64,000 nucleotides of DNA from positions 64,001 through 128,000 of the forward strand of contig CM000429.1 of the NCBI GenBank assembly GCA_000165345.1, read 5' to 3'. A program made the position numbers and the translations under genes. Below, piece by piece: positions 22,715 to 61,872 of this stretch. Below the pieces are notes generated by a model. The model was not told where the DNA came from and ran no database searches. It worked only from the letters and a program-made list of their open reading frames with translations. The first letter of the stretch is position 1. Each line of letters begins with the position of its first letter.

Positions 22715-22760
22715 ATACCGGTACATGTAATGGAATATTTGTGATTTTTCCGTAGTATGC
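22715..22760. promoter_or_regulatory. ATACCGGTACATGTAATGG plus TGCATGCA element between the carboxypeptidase and COQ4 genes.
   Basis: tataccggtacatgtaatgg...tagtatgcatgcacaattgg. Both motif types recur in other intergenic regions. Confidence 0.35.
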
Positions 22761-22877
22761 ATGCACAATTGGAGTGGGAAATTGATAAGAATTACGGAAT
22801 AAAAGAATACATTATTACTTATATTAATTAATACTAATTATCTCTTTTCCCTAAAAGTGTATATTCATATAAAATGT

Positions 22878-23862
22878 TTAGCAAAAAGGCATTGGCTTAA
22901 TACGTGTGTATTTCTGTAACTGTTTTGGGGGTGGAGAAATGTTAAGATAGTTTTGAAAATCAGCTATTGGTCTTGGAAACCAATCTTCTACCATTATTGT
23001 GTAGATATTGTGTCTCATTTTCTTCTCAGCTTTATATATCCAGGGGATAAGCTCTTTGATTACTATTCGTTTCGGATATAATATCTCCTTTTTCGTAATT
23101 TCAAGAGAATTTAGATATTTATCACAGTCTTGATGAATTTGTATCGGCTTGGATGGGTATACGTGTGTTTTATTATGATTTTCGAAAATTTCCTTAGGCC
23201 TAACCTTTAAAATTGGAGTGATAAAAAGTCCCATGAATGCTCCTATTGCTCCAAAAGGAATTCCAGCATGAAGAAACTCAAATAACTTCAATGTAACTTC
23301 AGATTCCACTGTAATGTTCAGCTCAAATGCAGTATGTAGGATATCGTGAATCTAAAAAAAAGAAAGGTAAGTAATTACAATCTGCTATTAAAAATTATCT
23401 ATAATCGTTAAGACTTACCTGTCTGAACCTTGTCAAAACATAAGCTAAATCCTCACTGTTCACATATCTCACAGGATCTCTATTTATTTCAAGGTTATAA
23501 GTTGTCAAAAATTCTCCATACCTTCTTCCGAGTGAATCATCTGGAAAAGCCATTAAATCTTTAATCGAATATTTTGATGAATCTATCAATGGTCTATTCT
23601 TTATTATTCTTCTACCATCTGGCGTGGAGTTCATCAAAATCTGTAATCTTCTCAAAGCTCTATTTGAGGTAAGTTCAGTGATGCATGCAACTGAATTAGA
23701 ATCAGTTGGATTTTTAAGACCTTCTACACAGCTTGTAACTGACAGCAAAACTTTCTCAAATTGCGTTATAGGGATATAATTCTTCCTAAATAGCTCTCTA
23801 AAATCTCCTCCCTTTAAGCTTGAAGCGGTTCTCTTAATTAATAAATTGGTAAACTTGTTCAT
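22878..23862 (-). CDS. COQ4: Ubiquinone biosynthesis protein COQ4, 2 exons: 23419..23862 and 22878..23351; intron 23352..23418 (67 nt).
   Basis: Joined product ...SLGRRYGEFL..NSEDLAYVLTRFRQ|IHDILHTAFELNI...GAIGAFMGLF...LIPW matches COQ4 ([47 protein letters not shown]..LIPW). Donor CAG|gtaagt, acceptor tttttttag|ATT. The track shows the two exons as separate ORFs. Confidence 0.8.
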
Positions 23863-24699
23863 TAATGTTTTATAAGCCTATTAATATTATTAAATCTCTA
23901 AGTTTTATGTTTCAATCAATGACTACTTCAAAAACTATATATAAAGCTAATCATAATTGTTAACTCAATTTATGTATACTCTCCACGATATTTTCTTCTA
24001 AATTACTAATACTTAAGTTTTTATATAATTTATATTTTCCGCATTAATAATGTAATTATTTACCGGGATTATATACAATATTTAAAAAAAATAATCTAAA
24101 TATTAGGAACAAAAAACAAGAATTCAAATAAATTCGAAATAATTTAGCGTTTTATTCGGTTCCAATTTGGAATTCATTCAATATTCAATTATATTACTCG
24201 TATATCTAAGTGGAAATATGAAAAATAAATTTGGACCTTTAATTCATTAGTAGCAATAATGCTTTTAGCCACTTGAAAAATTCAAATTGTTACACGTTGA
24301 AATTATATCGAGAAAAAGGTATAGTCATACTCTGATCTAGAAAAAAATATATTCCTAATAACTCTTCATTTTCTATCAGGTATTATGAATCATTAATTGA
24401 TTAATTCTAATTCTATTTTTATTTATTTATTTTTGTGGTGTGATGTAGAAAGTTTGCATTTTACCGCCTAAATGTGTGTTGTGTGTGGTAAATGGAATCA
24501 ATGAAATTTACACATAATCAAGGATTTTTATTACTACAATAATTAACTTAGCAAAAATCACTTAGTAAGTTCTTCTAAAAAGTTTTGGTTCACCCCTACC
24601 TTTCTAGTTTTGAGCTAATTTGCATATTTAAGTGAAAAATATTAAGAATCAAATAACCTAAATCAAAGTCAAAAAGTGTTCAAATTCTCGATTATAACA

Positions 24700-61700: not shown

Positions 61701-61757
61701 AATGACTCAGAATACAATAAATTTAGACTCATCTTTGGTAATCAACTTTTGATTTAA
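52770..61757 (+). CDS. Giant (~2995 aa) N-terminally membrane-anchored, Asn-rich protein; possibly a bridge-like lipid-transfer protein (BLTP/Csf1/Hobbit-like), low confidence. ATG at 52770 (track start at 52734 is TTG).
   Basis: Single uninterrupted 9-kb ORF. N-terminal TM VLQIILSIILIIFSLLCIFVHIL directly after the start. Long predicted beta-rich stretches separated by poly-N and low-complexity inserts. The conserved-looking C-terminal block (ILYFNYLRISSILVEVTYRGSVSLNNVLLELSSFTQRRK...) resembles the architecture of N-anchored giant BLTPs. Confidence 0.7.
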   Translation: MSVLQIILSIILIIFSLLCIFVHILKQFLQKKGFEVSFSGFFSLGNLKIKILEKYLKKYDNISGFEFFLSKISIRFQSWKLKFILYESKCICFILNGNHFKNKQFDHHLSQYSRLQNHSSRKTNIGTDDNSIGIIRNLMLIVTAQIISRIILFELENIQFQFYMVDCKCIGNHRNLKITQDGRCEKCGIQMKYGIYSKLDINSLSIFPKAYFGGIMVNFLINNPVLYLNPIENTISEKRCHTFYLNSNNKYNSSSNHKTSILNYILNQFYMKNNKTISKKCHSNQNNYPPLIYIDNNLNIKLKLMHSMSGSDIRVCILRNVNIEMNQLWITLIPEIICELVYIFHTIKSNFKNLNKISFNKNNLQVLDPNIINQSDPIIKLSPKYQLLSNNVLPISPIPLASPSSPSIISSSNSYSHSPLPPSFGNFENKVPRNKKKLIMNENLDRQLQITFKISQPSLIFCDNTQSSSGFEILFHEFEAHLIIQYFIEYLQSTLKLYNQDYDFESSNSEISDFNIIGNESNHFDLDTTDLKKKTRRSLKLVFGSKLIFGNSILYLNPKESHYFSKQIMPNTIKDGDFTFDRMFVIEHYKSIVEISDNNFVKLYLKSSIQRMFGIWRENGFYQNLTLFLQLIKFQKYLSKIKNQVNIDNSGNSNNNNNNNNNNNIEKPFIDQATEEIPKLPSRVELEDDDILKSDFLIKNNKYLKEIMTIKDFAVNLLFYLEIKDITIQTNDINCFNHELHILKKNDCSNNHCENCFIESFGPKERYEWRTDFDYESDTKFNMKIKKDDNDTDHDNHNDDKFFILKINNLKICNTSINRSFSMLFSDLDLYSMNEFIDLEDISTKYLNLPSCLKHNHDILDFQKTCIYRYGCFDQRIQVLNFEISPKIRDKNHLVKLCESIIISPWDYKRISLRFKGINGNLHTCYIPIYLYILGCFSIDCLALKKNNLNKVYYGINNQFEENFDFYCNQRFNYFEKFNEIKNDISNIIREFNPQELKNRNIQFWNIPDLIQSKVGSLKYTWYFDFDDITVNFLDGFKLLVNKLSLYRCNEYGNYDIKMNNVKIFDIFGINIINSNCIRLRSDIPYKSTKIKSPICLKKQLRRILDLSVNGDLLLLSILGNTEKSENNLKDINNGMIFFDSKRFILEIDKLDILFFVNCEYMESFFKYFYQYIYITYYQLFHPPLIIRTGKLLSFSRNHPIIFSCNNIFDFSITKMNLSLISLANFMLSQNFERFSLGSSVYRNKIYSKDDLYIQNNFKFDNSLNHKIKFGINNIFNLPIFELKLDNLRLIIRTKHTSNSKSVCNDRECYNIPNYLTNSMISEEGFLINSSYNPINIFVSLFGISFNLYNQLNLYKSRTTIQSRKEITFFSENIVIDFRRNYSHVDSNINGDFPELSSDVTISIYSKSKTSVNLSNASSFKAIKFINPIFEMIKNCPNFKSKFQKSNCEVFSKEFKNIIISRNTLIISIITSDLTSLYLVPYINLQSEREMSENSSVCIQLPKIEFYLKKYNNSHVENQEINNFLSQIESSSLFLKEGILIWILSKEIFAPVSNKKLQCRLSSILNSKNQKYSLKSTLVSISKFNINTQRNTYNNFNIKLDLDGLDKKSIIERCFGNDFNNGDNTQNMVIPLTLNLDSEKLIQLSTILESFLDESNFDSISIYYCEDCNKFKPTKSESLLRSQKVLNLDQKSLSHEKNNNQPELNFKLKISLNYINLRYEIFSLIINHVLLDLRYCNSKIGNLKLGIKETQLIAEYFPYKLSQFSKSSQSFKILRESSIQISSNFSAKTKMLEIARIGSIFFDNNNDSILLVLRAPQFSLSTLTIIYLEVLIKIINMLKLKSKRVPFKNEKSSLSPINNTSSIPLISGRKLNIQINEIMFNMHNLGTFRDYTIQRDDRKFRLGSSYSGFKKINIVPDLDTQSEFLFQVIERNPINSTFTLVDDLEESNTNLDIFKGNNGQSCLECRYHLNKALIYTSRISTDLKDNNHFRGNTNINISNCNNNSSSSNSQFDEIFRNYCNDYFSLLDEHVISDKYQKSSFEMIQEYKRICLYTESNISIPLEYGQITDYMILGEFGYGIKSDHISLSRSFKQIITRIPRVDCSIGIHDRNKNFEFVLKIFPVSIDVFLSNRLIWDLFGECTLEDLFDINKEDHPRIFPEISNYYCCRSEESFQWDDHNCQAHPHSQNDCSRIISDIPHVIKSNENFEVVTENFLSSSSSSSPPLALIEEFQSDRKRSLYDSTQEILKTTPIFVSIRIHTEKPSTQLKMYSKLLSVSIDSSRVQSINEILNSFELRNINTNKNNPSYQVSNNISNHPSTLTSSNNTTINNHPMSVLSNTMNSVAGGNLPPPIYYSHNLNPTNSIVSSGDQAQNLSSHISQQGYNFNAYPTAKTPSVLSFSNYFYDQKQEQGQRINAMNLLNLNNKTKNANPKSNSLDFNANRLLLNCDLNDKNVMNMLKFEIDKFLADNPLFYTVVDNIQCQAGGDNNHLNQYRLQIECIVDQLNVDMFINNKRFSNFQSKDINFVMFSNNNPSNSTIIEFDTSFIHLSANKDFVQSNGNSNVIPGTNGVGSGVVSGNNNSNYNNQINFNISNSNLNPNSNNIFNANGNGIGNGNVNSNIIGEGGTGLNHNNSGLNVSSVSTIENSINATSQEEISIIHPMYIDGHTSQGHGHVLSIRINMRQVRLLEVYNIRILESVVIRVHPIRVNITQYLTSCYYDIFFPPPITNQPSMTSIQIGSNTQNFLQMSNVASEAASSKIKEDNAIYAENSYIINSNTNSDITIPTIEQENSSLTFNNQQPQNNNTSVDTQNCSKNILYFNYLRISSILVEVTYRGSVSLNNVLLELSSFTQRRKHRTVKEMVDKYISFLRRQAARPVISYTFKQLRHSLLPKHFKSHKRNSNYNSHYDIIQANIQNNHLNNGNERSLKIDSSYQDLLSETTNNGNHSNYNNNINSILSKNDDDLPNTYRKIQNTNCSKNDSEYNKFRLIFGNQLLI

Positions 61758-61781
61758 TTGCTTCAACTGACTGCTTTGCAA

Positions 61782-61872
61782 CTCCCGCCCACTATTCCTC
61801 TTGTAATTATCTGCATGCGACCAAGTACATGCAAAAAAACACTTGCAATATACCGGCATTGGTTGGCGCCAT
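61782..61872. promoter_or_regulatory. Composite GC-motif cluster (CTCCCGCCC ... TGCATGCG ... ATACCGGCA ... TTGGCGCCA) between the giant gene and the TCAB1-like gene.
   Basis: actcccgcccactatt...ctgcatgcgacc...atataccggcattggttggcgccatacgtggg: all four recurrent motif types sit within 90 bp, about 260 bp upstream of the ATG at 62130. Confidence 0.45.

What the first reader, a model, noticed from the sequence alone, without database searches (positions are those of the whole stretch)
22715..61860. Second conserved element ATACCGGYA...(T)ACATG, also present in 3'-3' gaps
ATACCGGTA or ATACCGGCA, usually followed within 0-25 bp by (T)ACATG(T/C)AA, occurs at 22718, 34199, 36355, 43728, 47528, 51248 and 61851, always intergenic. 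It is often next to TGCATGCA: 22744, 47456, 51166, 61812, and tandem copies at 30199..30232. Five of these lie upstream of a gene. Three clusters instead sit in convergent 3'-3' regions:
- 47450-47540, between the 45437 gene and V-ATPase c.
- 51160-51290, downstream of the ZNF593 stop.
- 30199-30232, between the PSMB2 and p24 stops.
Either these elements also act at 3' ends (polyadenylation/termination or boundary function), or these gaps hide unannotated small transcripts such as snoRNA or snRNA genes driven by the same promoter module.
Basis: seen in the sequence. Interest (0 to 1): 0.55.

Follow-up and report, generated by a model that had tools for sequence, protein, structure and literature searches.

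The report
Uncatalogued conserved Cryptosporidium promoter-type DNA motif
A short DNA word, ATACCGGYR, recurs between genes of Cryptosporidium parvum, is kept in place in related species and sits beside three partner motifs, so it is most likely an undescribed transcription-factor binding site rather than a 3'-end signal or a hidden small-RNA gene.

Summary
The window is Cryptosporidium parvum chromosome 1 (cgd1_3xx-5xx). The motif is real. ATACCGGYA occurs 7 times against 0.14 expected. Counting one-mismatch variants there are nine TACCGG sites, all intergenic.

After the E2F and TGCATGCA words, it is the third most enriched word family in the window's intergenic DNA. Its core is kept at orthologous positions in C. 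ubiquitum, the chipmunk genotype, C. canis and C. felis: 9 of 22 site-by-species cells against 2.2 expected.

It co-occurs specifically with ACATGYAA/CATGYA, ATGTGGA(C) and ACGT-core words. It does not co-occur with E2F, G-box or AATAAA. The same four-part module appears around five more copies elsewhere in the genome, in published lncRNA sequences.

Five sites lie 59-281 bp upstream of start codons. One cluster lies inside the validated antisense lncRNA Cp_lnc_51.

Of the three "convergent" clusters, two are truly convergent. The ZNF593 one lies in a tandem spacer. No snoRNA or snRNA signal was found.

None of the Cryptosporidium motif papers I could read lists this motif.

Verdict: a new member of a known kind, namely a cis-regulatory binding site. 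The factor that binds it and the direction of transcription at the 3' sites remain unknown.

The parts
16709..16717 (-). ATACCGGTA site (plus strand reads TTACCGGTAT). It lies in a 1465-bp convergent gap between the RRM_11 gene and Noc2. GGCATGG and TGCATGCA (16732) follow within 30 bp, and AATGTGGAAA is at 16757.
22681..22765 (+). Module: TATGTGGAC (22681), GCATGT-ATACCGGTA-CATGTAA (22715-22730), TGCATGCA (22758). It lies 113-197 nt downstream of the Coq4 stop and about 455 bp upstream of the M14 peptidase ATG. It sits inside the published antisense lncRNA Cp_lnc_51, whose model starts at 22616.
   Evidence: conserved in C. ubiquitum, chipmunk genotype and C. canis
24060..24068 (+). Variant site TTACCGGGA, 201 bp upstream of the Coq4 ATG in a divergent spacer.
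   Evidence: all nine bases identical in chipmunk genotype and C. canis
34199..34207 (.). Variant site GTACCGGTA (palindromic core), 188 bp upstream of the cgd1_450 ATG.
   Evidence: only partly kept in C. canis (GGGCCGGTACTGCA)
36356..36365 (.). Perfect palindrome ATACCGGTAT. It lies 8 bp after an E2F site (TTTAGGCGGGAA) and 202 bp upstream of the cgd1_460 ATG.
   Evidence: E2F plus TACCGGTAT kept in C. ubiquitum and chipmunk genotype
43671..43766 (+). Module upstream of Exo5 (ATG at 43788): TTGTCCACATG (43671), TTGCATGTAA, ATACCGGCA (43729-43737), TTGCATGTGGGGG (43754).
   Evidence: CCTATACCGG is kept in hominis, tyzzeri, meleagridis, ubiquitum, canis and the species of L013
47407..47431 (.). 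AT-rich block AATAATTTATTTAAAATAAACTATA that bounds the module. It is identical in 7 of the 10 aligned taxa and differs at one or two bases in the species of L013 and in C. felis. It carries AATAAA on both strands and is also TATA-like. Its role, poly(A) signal or core promoter, is not resolved.
47455..47564 (+). Module in the true convergent gap between cgd1_510 and V-ATPase c1: TGCATGCA (47455), TTACGTGGCC (47467), ACATGTGGAAA (47494), ATACCGGCA (47525-47533), TTACATGTAA (47534), E2F-like TTTGCCGCG (47556).
   Evidence: the elements recur in 10 Cryptosporidium taxa, in the same order in most
47640..47676 (+). Conserved block GAATCATTTATATAAATCTTTGTGACTTCTCAAG, a TATA-like sequence plus a short inverted repeat, on the V-ATPase side of the module.
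51158..51290 (+). Module in a tandem spacer (not convergent), 115-245 nt downstream of the ZNF593-like stop and about 870 bp upstream of the V-ATPase c2 ATG. It reads TATGTGGATGCATGCC, TGACGTAAT, ACATGCAG, CATGCAA, ATACCGGTC (51250-51258), TTACATGCAAAT, ACACGTAAT.
   Evidence: the TACCGG core is kept only in close relatives, while the flanking elements are kept in C. ubiquitum and C. canis
61812..61878 (+). Module 281 bp upstream of the WD40-like gene ATG (62131): TGCATGCG, TACATGCAA, ATACCGGCA (61850-61858), E2F TTGGCGCC, ACGTGGG.
30199..30222 (.). Tandem TGCATGCA pair in the 142-bp convergent gap between the proteasome beta and p24 genes. There is no ATACCGG here.
   Evidence: the CATGCATGC run is kept in ubiquitum, chipmunk genotype and canis

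Best explanation
ATACCGGYR (ideal form the palindrome ATACCGGTAT) is a DNA-level binding site for a still unidentified sequence-specific factor, probably a dimer.

It works as one component of a compact composite module of about 100-150 bp. Its partners are CATG-core sites (TGCATGCA / TTACATGYAA, the ApiAP2 'AP2_1-like' family), (C)ATGTGGAC(A), and ACGT-core sites (TTACGTGG / ACACGTAAT). Spacing between the components is flexible.

Such modules sit upstream of some mRNA genes: Exo5, a WD40-like gene, cgd1_450, cgd1_460 and Coq4. They also sit in the 3' flanks of other genes and in convergent gaps. There they most likely direct or modulate unannotated antisense or intergenic transcription.

What is shown: enrichment, intergenic restriction, cross-species conservation, specific partners, and the fact that some modules are transcribed. 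What is inferred: that a protein binds the motif, that it activates transcription, and the direction of transcription at the 3' sites.
For: 1. Enrichment. ATACCGGYA occurs 7 times against 0.14 expected. CCGGTA, ACCGGTA and TACCGGTA form the third-ranked non-low-complexity word family in the window's intergenic DNA, after E2F and GCATGC.
2. Location. There are nine intergenic TACCGG sites, against two weak CCGGTA copies in about 45 kb of coding DNA.
3. Position. Five sites lie 59-281 bp upstream of start codons.
4. Conservation. The TACCGG core is fully conserved in 9 of 22 site-by-species cells against 2.2 expected (P about 1e-4). In C. canis it is kept at 4 of 7 sites against a 6% background.
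5. Symmetry. Four of the nine sites are perfect TACCGGTA palindromes. At the 47525 orthologues the degenerate half-site switches sides between species, as expected for symmetric recognition of double-stranded DNA.
6. Specific partners within 60 bp. ACATGYAA 7 of 11 (P 9e-7), CATGYA 14 of 41 (P 9e-8), ATGTGGA 4 of 7 (P 4e-4), ACGTGG 2 of 2. E2F words, G-box, CACACA, CCAAT and AATAAA are at chance.
7. Out-of-sample support. One more site in 7.7 kb beyond the window (equivalent to 65424) is intergenic and flanked by CATGCA and TATGTGGACAA. Of six ATACCGGYR copies in about 400 kb of published lncRNA sequence from other loci, five sit within TGTCCACAT + TTACGTG/ACACGTAAT + TGCATGC clusters.
8. Module architecture. 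At 47455-47564 the elements recur in 10 taxa, in the same order in most.
9. Precedent. C. parvum antisense lncRNAs tend to start at 3' ends of genes, with E2F and AP2_1 motifs upstream (PMC7840661). Cp_lnc_51 overlaps the 22715 module.
Against: - There are no binding, accessibility or reporter data for this motif.
- None of the C. parvum ApiAP2 domains with a measured binding specificity recognises ACCGG (PMC12246861 Table 4), so the factor is unknown.
- Four of ten sites are more than 450 bp from any annotated start codon.
- In the Cp_lnc_51 model the module lies about 100 nt downstream of the modelled 5' end, not upstream of it.
- Logan contigs run through the 47525-type module. The module is therefore transcribed, and it could act in RNA or as a 3' element.
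- The sample is only about 72 kb of C. parvum plus orthologous loci, so genome-wide behaviour is extrapolated.
- The motif is absent from the orthologous spacers of C. bovis and C. andersoni.
Confidence: 0.6

Rival explanations
1. Boundary or termination element. The motif binds a general regulatory factor of the yeast Reb1 type (Myb-like, site TTACCCG, as I recall it). This factor would keep a nucleosome-free region open and block or terminate read-through polymerase in a very compact genome. That would explain sites both in promoters and in 3' flanks.
For: - Five of ten sites lie 100-600 nt downstream of a stop codon (Coq4, V-ATPase c1, ZNF593-like, Noc2, dynamin).
- Two sites lie in convergent gaps where no annotated gene needs a promoter.
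- The 47455-47564 module abuts a near-invariant AATAAA-bearing block.
- Three independent Logan contigs end within 5 nt of each other at the module's edge.
- ATACCGG/TTACCGGG resembles TTACCCGG. This is a resemblance from memory, not a test.
Against: - C. bovis and the species of L034 have the same convergent gene pair with a 339-352 bp gap and no module, so 3'-end formation of these genes does not need it.
- The motif has specific partners rather than standing alone.
- No Reb1-like protein was looked for or shown.
Confidence: 0.17
2. RNA-level element. The cluster acts in the 3' UTR of the flanking mRNA (V-ATPase c1, Coq4, ZNF593-like) or within lncRNAs, as a binding platform for RNA-binding proteins that control stability or translation.
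For: - The 22715 cluster lies inside Cp_lnc_51.
- Contigs that look transcript-derived cover V-ATPase c1 plus about 600 nt downstream, including the module.
- Several lncRNA models contain the module.
Against: - The components are palindromes or occur in either orientation. The degenerate half-site flips between species, and five sites are upstream of start codons.
- TGCATGCA-type partners are established DNA sites of ApiAP2 domains (PMC3734150, PMC4117751).
- There is no stable or unusual RNA structure.
Confidence: 0.07
3. The 3' gaps hide small structured RNA genes (snoRNA or snRNA), and the module is their promoter.
For: - The gaps are unusually long (829, 1028 and 1465 bp).
- A TATA-like conserved block follows the 47525 module.
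- C. parvum snoRNA annotation is admittedly incomplete (PMC9465071).
Against: - Rfam finds nothing at gathering threshold in the window, and only noise at E<=5 in the gaps.
- There are no tRNAs.
- Folding z-scores are -1.0 and -0.7.
- Sequence downstream of the TATA-like block is poorly conserved and full of indels between C. parvum, C. ubiquitum and C. canis.
Confidence: 0.03
4. Chance or compositional artefact of a GC-containing word in AT-rich spacers.
For: The sample is small: nine sites in one 64-kb window.
Against: - No shuffle reaches the observed count, and the order-2 Markov expectation is 0.14-1.4.
- Conservation exceeds background.
- Instances outside the window show the same partners.
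Confidence: 0.01

Closest known systems
AP2_1 / TGCATGCA family of apicomplexan upstream motifs (C. parvum motifs 1, 7, 8, 11 and 23 of Oberstaller 2013), bound by ApiAP2 domains such as cgd2_3490
   Same: It is a short, often palindromic word that is strongly enriched in intergenic DNA and conserved across species. It is also found at lncRNA promoters. The partner element ACATGYAA / TTACATGYAA belongs to this family (motif 7 ACATGY, and probably motif 9 YTTACAT).
   Different: ATACCGGYR has a CCGG core and no TGCAT/CATG core. No C. parvum AP2 domain with a measured specificity binds it.
E2F/DP sites (TTTGGCGGGAA / TGGCGCCA), the dominant C. parvum promoter motif
   Same: It is a GC-containing word restricted to spacers and lying within a few hundred bp of start codons. 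E2F sites also occur in convergent gaps.
   Different: The sequence is different. E2F words are not concentrated near TACCGG sites (1 of 12, 1 of 8 and 1 of 14, which is chance level). The two therefore mark largely separate modules.
MEME 'motif 4' (CCCATACCAGGTGGA) and 'motif 5' (TTGTCCACATK) upstream of C. parvum lncRNAs (Li et al. 2021, PMC7840661, Table S3)
   Same: Two motif-4 instances are CCTATACCGGCTGTC and CCCATACCGGCGTTC, at -80 and -20 of lncRNAs, which are the element studied here. Motif 5 is the ATGTGGAC(A) partner seen at 22681, 43671 and 47494.
   Different: Six of the twelve motif-4 sites are one 15-bp tandem repeat upstream of Cp_lnc_184, and most of the remainder lack CCGG. 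The published motif is therefore not ATACCGGYR, and the paper leaves it uninterpreted.
Yeast Reb1-type general regulatory factor sites (TTACCCG) and Grainyhead/CP2 sites (AACCGGTT); both recalled from memory
   Same: They share an ACCGG/ACCGGT-like core. Reb1 sites occur in both promoter and 3' nucleosome-free regions of a compact genome. CP2 sites are palindromic dimer sites.
   Different: The flanks differ. No such protein was sought or shown in Cryptosporidium, and no termination or insulation was tested.

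Membership tests
ApiAP2 AP2_1 (TGCATGCA) motif family | TGCAT / CATG palindromic core | tested here: not met
   The ATACCGGYR instances contain no TGCAT/CATG core. The adjacent ACATGYAA partner does contain it.
ApiAP2 AP2_1 (TGCATGCA) motif family | Bound in vitro by an ApiAP2 domain (protein-binding microarray) | not testable with these tools
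   The published table of C. parvum AP2 specificities lists TGCAT-like, CACACA/GTGTGT, G-box, GCGTGCA and AAAA, or no binding. None is ACCGG.
E2F/DP site | Match to [A/T][C/G]GCGC[G/C][A/T] or TTTGGCGGGAA | tested here: not met
   There is no GCGC/GGCGG in the element. E2F words are at chance frequency near it.
Catalogued C. parvum upstream motifs (25 motifs in 11 families, Oberstaller 2013; six families in the 2025 review) | Sequence match to a listed consensus | tested here: not met
   Table 1 and review Table 3 hold no CCGG-core motif. Text searches for CCGG/ACCG in five papers found none in the main text, and in the one supplement held as text only two E2F-type strings.
Li 2021 lncRNA-upstream motif 4 | Match to CCCATACCAGGTGGA within 100 bp upstream of a lncRNA start | tested here: inconclusive
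   Two of 12 listed sites are C[CT]ATACCGGC. Six are copies of one tandem repeat, and most of the other four lack CCGG.
Hidden snoRNA/snRNA gene with upstream promoter | Covariance-model match or conserved stable structure in the gap | tested here: not met
   Rfam found 0 hits at gathering threshold and only noise at E<=5. There are no tRNAs. Folding z-scores are -1.0 and -0.7.
Polyadenylation / 3'-end signal | A(A/G)TAAA-type hexamer positioned just upstream of transcript ends, and needed at the 3' end of the flanking gene | tested here: not met
   The element is not A(A/G)TAAA. AATAAA is not enriched near it (5 of 117). Five sites are 5' of genes. The orthologous convergent gap lacks the module in C. 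bovis and in the species of L034.
Antisense/intergenic lncRNA promoter module (Li 2021 paradigm) | Located at the 3' end of a sense gene with a strand-specific transcript arising there | tested here: inconclusive
   Cp_lnc_51 primers and sequence map to 22616-23832 on the plus strand and include the 22715 module. However, the modelled 5' end is about 100 nt upstream of the motif. No lncRNA is listed for the 47.2-48.05 kb or 15.8-17.3 kb gaps.
Reb1-type roadblock / insulator site | Bound by a Myb-like general regulatory factor, with transcripts terminating at the site | not testable with these tools
   There is only a sequence resemblance recalled from memory. C. parvum has 16 Myb-domain proteins, and the review gives no binding motif for any of them.

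The most novel reading that the evidence does not exclude
ATACCGGYR and its partners (ATGTGGAC, TTACGTGG/ACACGTAAT, TTACATGYAA) define a second, E2F-independent class of Cryptosporidium regulatory region that arose within the intestinal clade (C. parvum to C. felis). This class would be read by an unknown factor, perhaps one of the DNA-binding Myb proteins or an AP2 domain that gave no array signal. It would be preferentially placed in 3' flanks, where it would launch antisense RNAs, or insulate neighbouring genes from them. It would thus be a dedicated 'antisense switch' module.
Probability: 0.2. Interest if true: 0.65.

Novelty: new member of a known kind. Interest (0 to 1): 0.45.

Why it matters
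Gene regulation in Cryptosporidium is poorly understood. The accepted motif list is short (E2F, AP2_1, AP2_2, G-box, GAGA, CAAT), and most of the Myb and zinc-finger proteins have no known target.

This motif ranks third in local intergenic enrichment. It is conserved in sequence and position and has defined partners. That gives a concrete probe for pull-down or DAP-seq to find a new regulator.

It also gives a concrete set of sites to mutate, for example Exo5 at -59, WD40 at -281, and the V-ATPase c1 / cgd1_510 gap.

Finally, it offers a handle on how antisense lncRNAs are started or bounded in a genome where spacers average about 500 bp.

Tried and rejected
- snoRNA, snRNA and tRNA scans of the window and gaps gave nothing.
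- RNA folding of the 47.2-48.05 kb gap on both strands was no better than shuffles.
- A small protein-coding gene in that gap was rejected. There is no ORF longer than 43 aa, and indels between species are not in multiples of three.
- A fixed bipartite spacing between CCGG and CATG was rejected. At the orthologues of one site (47525) the spacing is 5-6 nt, but across sites it ranges from 2 to more than 30 nt.
- A consistent orientation of the non-palindromic variants relative to transcription was rejected. In C. parvum all of them read ATACCGG on the plus strand, but the orientation flips in orthologues.
- Using adapter sequences on Logan contig L019 to infer the RNA strand was rejected, because the library type is unknown.
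- My first mapping of the published lncRNAs Cp_lnc_360, 361 and 389 to the window was wrong. Two CPATCC numbering schemes exist, and those lncRNAs' motifs are absent from the window. The correct ones are Cp_lnc_49, 50 and 51.
- The F-RBP RNA motif CAMCAACAR (2026 preprint) is unrelated.
- A genome-wide count in C. parvum could not be done with the collections available.

Full report
IDENTITY OF THE WINDOW. Exact protein look-ups place the window on Cryptosporidium parvum chromosome 1. Exo5 is cgd1_500 at 43788-45128. cgd1_510 is at 45437-47221. A V-ATPase proteolipid gene is at 48051-48548. Gene calls on public assemblies gave the rest of the map:
- ZNF593-like 51405-52094 (-)
- V-ATPase c2 49879-50376 (-)
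- Nop10 49181-49420 (+)
- DUF842 42508-43312 (-)
- proteasome beta 29432-30159 (+)
- p24 30302-31046 (-)
- Coq4 22878-23862 (-)
- M14 peptidase 20017-22260 (-)
- a WD40-like gene 62131-63568 (+)

THE OBSERVATION. ATACCGGYA occurs 7 times against 0.14 expected, and no shuffle reaches that count. The whole window holds only 25 CCGG. Nine intergenic ones are in a TACCGG context (16709, 22716, 24061, 34200, 36357, 43730, 47526, 51251, 61851). About 45 kb of coding sequence holds only two weak CCGGTA copies.

An unbiased k-mer survey of the 18.8 kb of spacer DNA ranks CCGGTA/ACCGGTA/TACCGGTA third among non-low-complexity words. Only the E2F words (GGCGCC) and GCATGC/TGCATGCA rank higher.

Two of its seven sites are one-mismatch variants. 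It missed 16709 and 24060.

CONSERVATION. I fetched orthologous loci from C. hominis, C. tyzzeri, C. meleagridis, C. ubiquitum, the chipmunk genotype, C. canis, C. felis, C. bovis, C. andersoni and several unnamed species assembled from public runs.
- The Exo5 site reads CCTATACCGG in seven taxa.
- The 22715 site keeps CATG-TATACCGG-YR-CATG in C. ubiquitum and C. canis, and in a one-mismatch form (TATTCCGG) in the chipmunk genotype.
- 24060 is identical in the chipmunk genotype and C. canis.
- 36356 keeps E2F plus TACCGGTAT in C. ubiquitum and the chipmunk genotype.

On MAFFT alignments of 16 spacers, the 6-nt core is fully conserved in 9 of 22 site-by-species cells against 2.2 expected from all 6-mers (P about 1e-4). 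This is an underestimate, because one true match (the species of L013) was misaligned and the conserved C. ubiquitum copy of the 22715 site was left out of that alignment.

The 51250 core is kept only in close relatives. The orthologous spacers of C. bovis and C. andersoni show no TACCGG. At these loci the motif therefore belongs to the intestinal clade from C. parvum to C. felis.

PARTNERS. Within 60 bp of the nine sites, which is 6.2% of spacer DNA, the counts are:
- ACATGYAA: 7 of 11 copies
- CATGYA: 14 of 41
- ATGTGGA: 4 of 7
- ACGTGG: 2 of 2

By contrast GGCGCC, GGCGGG, TTGGCG, TGTGGGG, CACACA, CCAAT, GAGAGA, TATATA and AATAAA are at chance. Exact TGCATGCA is only marginal. It is not generic promoter crowding.

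Spacing is variable, so this is a billboard-type module rather than a bipartite site. ACATGY and YTTACAT are already listed as C. parvum motifs 7 and 9 (PMC3734150). TTGTCCACATK is 'motif 5' upstream of lncRNAs (PMC7840661).

OUT-OF-SAMPLE CHECKS.
- The 7.7 kb beyond the window contains one more site. It is intergenic, with CATGCA and TATGTGGACAA beside it.
- In about 400 kb of published lncRNA sequence from other loci, six ATACCGGYR copies occur. Five sit in clusters with TGTCCACAT, TTACGTG/ACACGTAAT and TGCATGC.
- Two further instances, CCTATACCGGC and CCCATACCGGC, lie at -80 and -20 of lncRNAs in that paper's Table S3.

THE 3' CASES.

(a) 22681-22765 lies 113-197 nt beyond the Coq4 stop. 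The RT-PCR primers for Cp_lnc_51 and for CPATCC_0039020 map here. The published Cp_lnc_51 sequence begins at 22616 and contains the module. Plus-strand antisense transcription across this cluster is therefore documented. However, the short-read model puts its 5' end about 100 nt upstream of the motif.

(b) 47455-47564 lies in a true convergent gap. The module is flanked by two conserved AT-rich blocks. AATAATTTATTTAAAATAAACTATA at 47407 is identical in 7 of 10 taxa, and the block containing TTTATATAAATC at 47640-47676 is present in 9 of 10. The module's elements recur in all ten taxa, in the same order in most.

Three contigs from independent sequencing runs of a related species span V-ATPase c1. 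They run from about 65-100 nt upstream of the ATG to about 600 nt past the stop. All end within 5 nt of each other just short of the left AT block. The module is thus transcribed there. This could be a long V-ATPase 3' UTR, or an antisense RNA starting about 30 nt from the TATA-like left block. I could not tell which.

C. bovis and the species of L034 have the same gene pair with a 339-352 bp gap and no module. The module is therefore an added unit, not a requirement for 3'-end formation.

(c) 51158-51290 is not convergent. It lies in a tandem spacer. The evident V-ATPase c2 promoter is a conserved double E2F block at about 50620-50680.

(d) 30199-30222 is a conserved TGCATGCA pair without ATACCGG.

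(e) Other long convergent gaps (4097-4872, 15825-17289, 40018-41167) also carry E2F and CATG words. Promoter-type motifs in 3'-3' gaps are thus a general feature here. This fits the published finding that C. parvum antisense lncRNAs arise at gene 3' ends.

SMALL-RNA HYPOTHESIS. There are no Rfam matches, no tRNAs and no unusual folding. Sequence between the module and the V-ATPase stop is poorly conserved and rich in indels. I reject snoRNA and snRNA genes as the explanation.

LITERATURE. No CCGG-core motif appears in the main text of any of these sources, and the one supplement held as text contains CCGG only inside two E2F-type strings:
- Mullapudi 2007
- Cohn 2010
- Oberstaller 2013
- Oberstaller 2014 (supplements not held as text)
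- the 2025 review's motif and AP2 tables

The nearest published item is the uninterpreted, repeat-dominated 'motif 4' of Li 2021. Bankier 2003, which surveyed over-represented octamers on chromosome 6, was not available to me. Prior mention there cannot be excluded.

INTERPRETATION. The most economical reading is a DNA site for an unidentified, probably dimeric factor that acts within a four-component module. Five points support this:
- the palindromic ideal form
- half-site degeneracy that switches sides between species
- restriction to spacers
- conservation across species
- partnership with known ApiAP2-type sites

The module serves some mRNA promoters. In 3' flanks it serves unannotated antisense or intergenic transcription.

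A Reb1-like boundary or roadblock role remains possible, and the two roles are not mutually exclusive. An RNA-level role is unlikely. The binding protein, the stage specificity and the direction of transcription at the 3' sites are not established.

Noticed in passing
window 24435-24497 and flanks (about 24420-24540): A roughly 100-nt block upstream of the 24700(+) gene (GTGGTGTGATGTAGAAAGTTTGCATTTTACCGCCTAAATGTGTGTTGTGTGTGGTAAATGGAA...) is almost invariant between C. parvum, the chipmunk genotype and C. canis. The rest of the spacer is scrambled. This is unusually strong conservation for a promoter. It contains an E2F-like TTACCGCC and a GTGTGT run.
   Followed up: partly
window 47407-47431 and 47640-47676: Two AT-rich blocks flank the module in the cgd1_510 / V-ATPase c1 gap. 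They are AATAATTTATTTAAAATAAACTATA, and GAATCATTTATATAAATC followed by a short inverted repeat. The first is identical in 7 of 10 Cryptosporidium taxa and the second is present in 9 of 10. Each occurs only once in the window. Their role, core promoter or poly(A) signal, is unresolved.
   Followed up: partly
window 4097-4872, 15825-17289, 40018-41167: Three further convergent gaps are long (776-1465 bp) and annotated as empty, yet they contain E2F and CATG-type promoter words. This suggests more unannotated transcription units.
   Followed up: no
window 43736 (Exo5 upstream site): The motif is polymorphic among C. parvum assemblies. It reads ATACCGGCA in the window and two assemblies (L003, L008). 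It reads the palindromic ATACCGGTA in another C. parvum assembly (L004) and in C. hominis, C. tyzzeri and C. meleagridis.
   Followed up: partly
window 48051-50376: Two V-ATPase proteolipid (subunit c) paralogues lie on the same strand with the intron-containing Nop10 gene between them. The arrangement is conserved through to C. bovis.
   Followed up: no
window 50620-50680: A double E2F block (ACCTACCCATTTTACCGCCATGAGACAATT..TTCCCGCCTA) about 250-300 bp upstream of V-ATPase c2 is conserved through to C. felis. It is the likely true promoter of that gene.
   Followed up: partly
window 22411-22500: A strongly conserved block (TTATATTATTTTCAAATTAT...GATTCCAATCCCC...CCGTGTGGAATTTTTATATTTCTTACCGC) lies upstream of the M14 carboxypeptidase gene in C. 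parvum, the chipmunk genotype and C. canis. It is separate from the ATACCGG module in the same spacer.
   Followed up: no
L018-L020 (Logan contigs of another Cryptosporidium species): Three contigs of about 1.2 kb from different sequencing runs share almost identical ends around V-ATPase c1. One carries Illumina adapter at both ends. They look like assembled transcripts and could be mined for UTR boundaries in species that lack annotation.
   Followed up: partly
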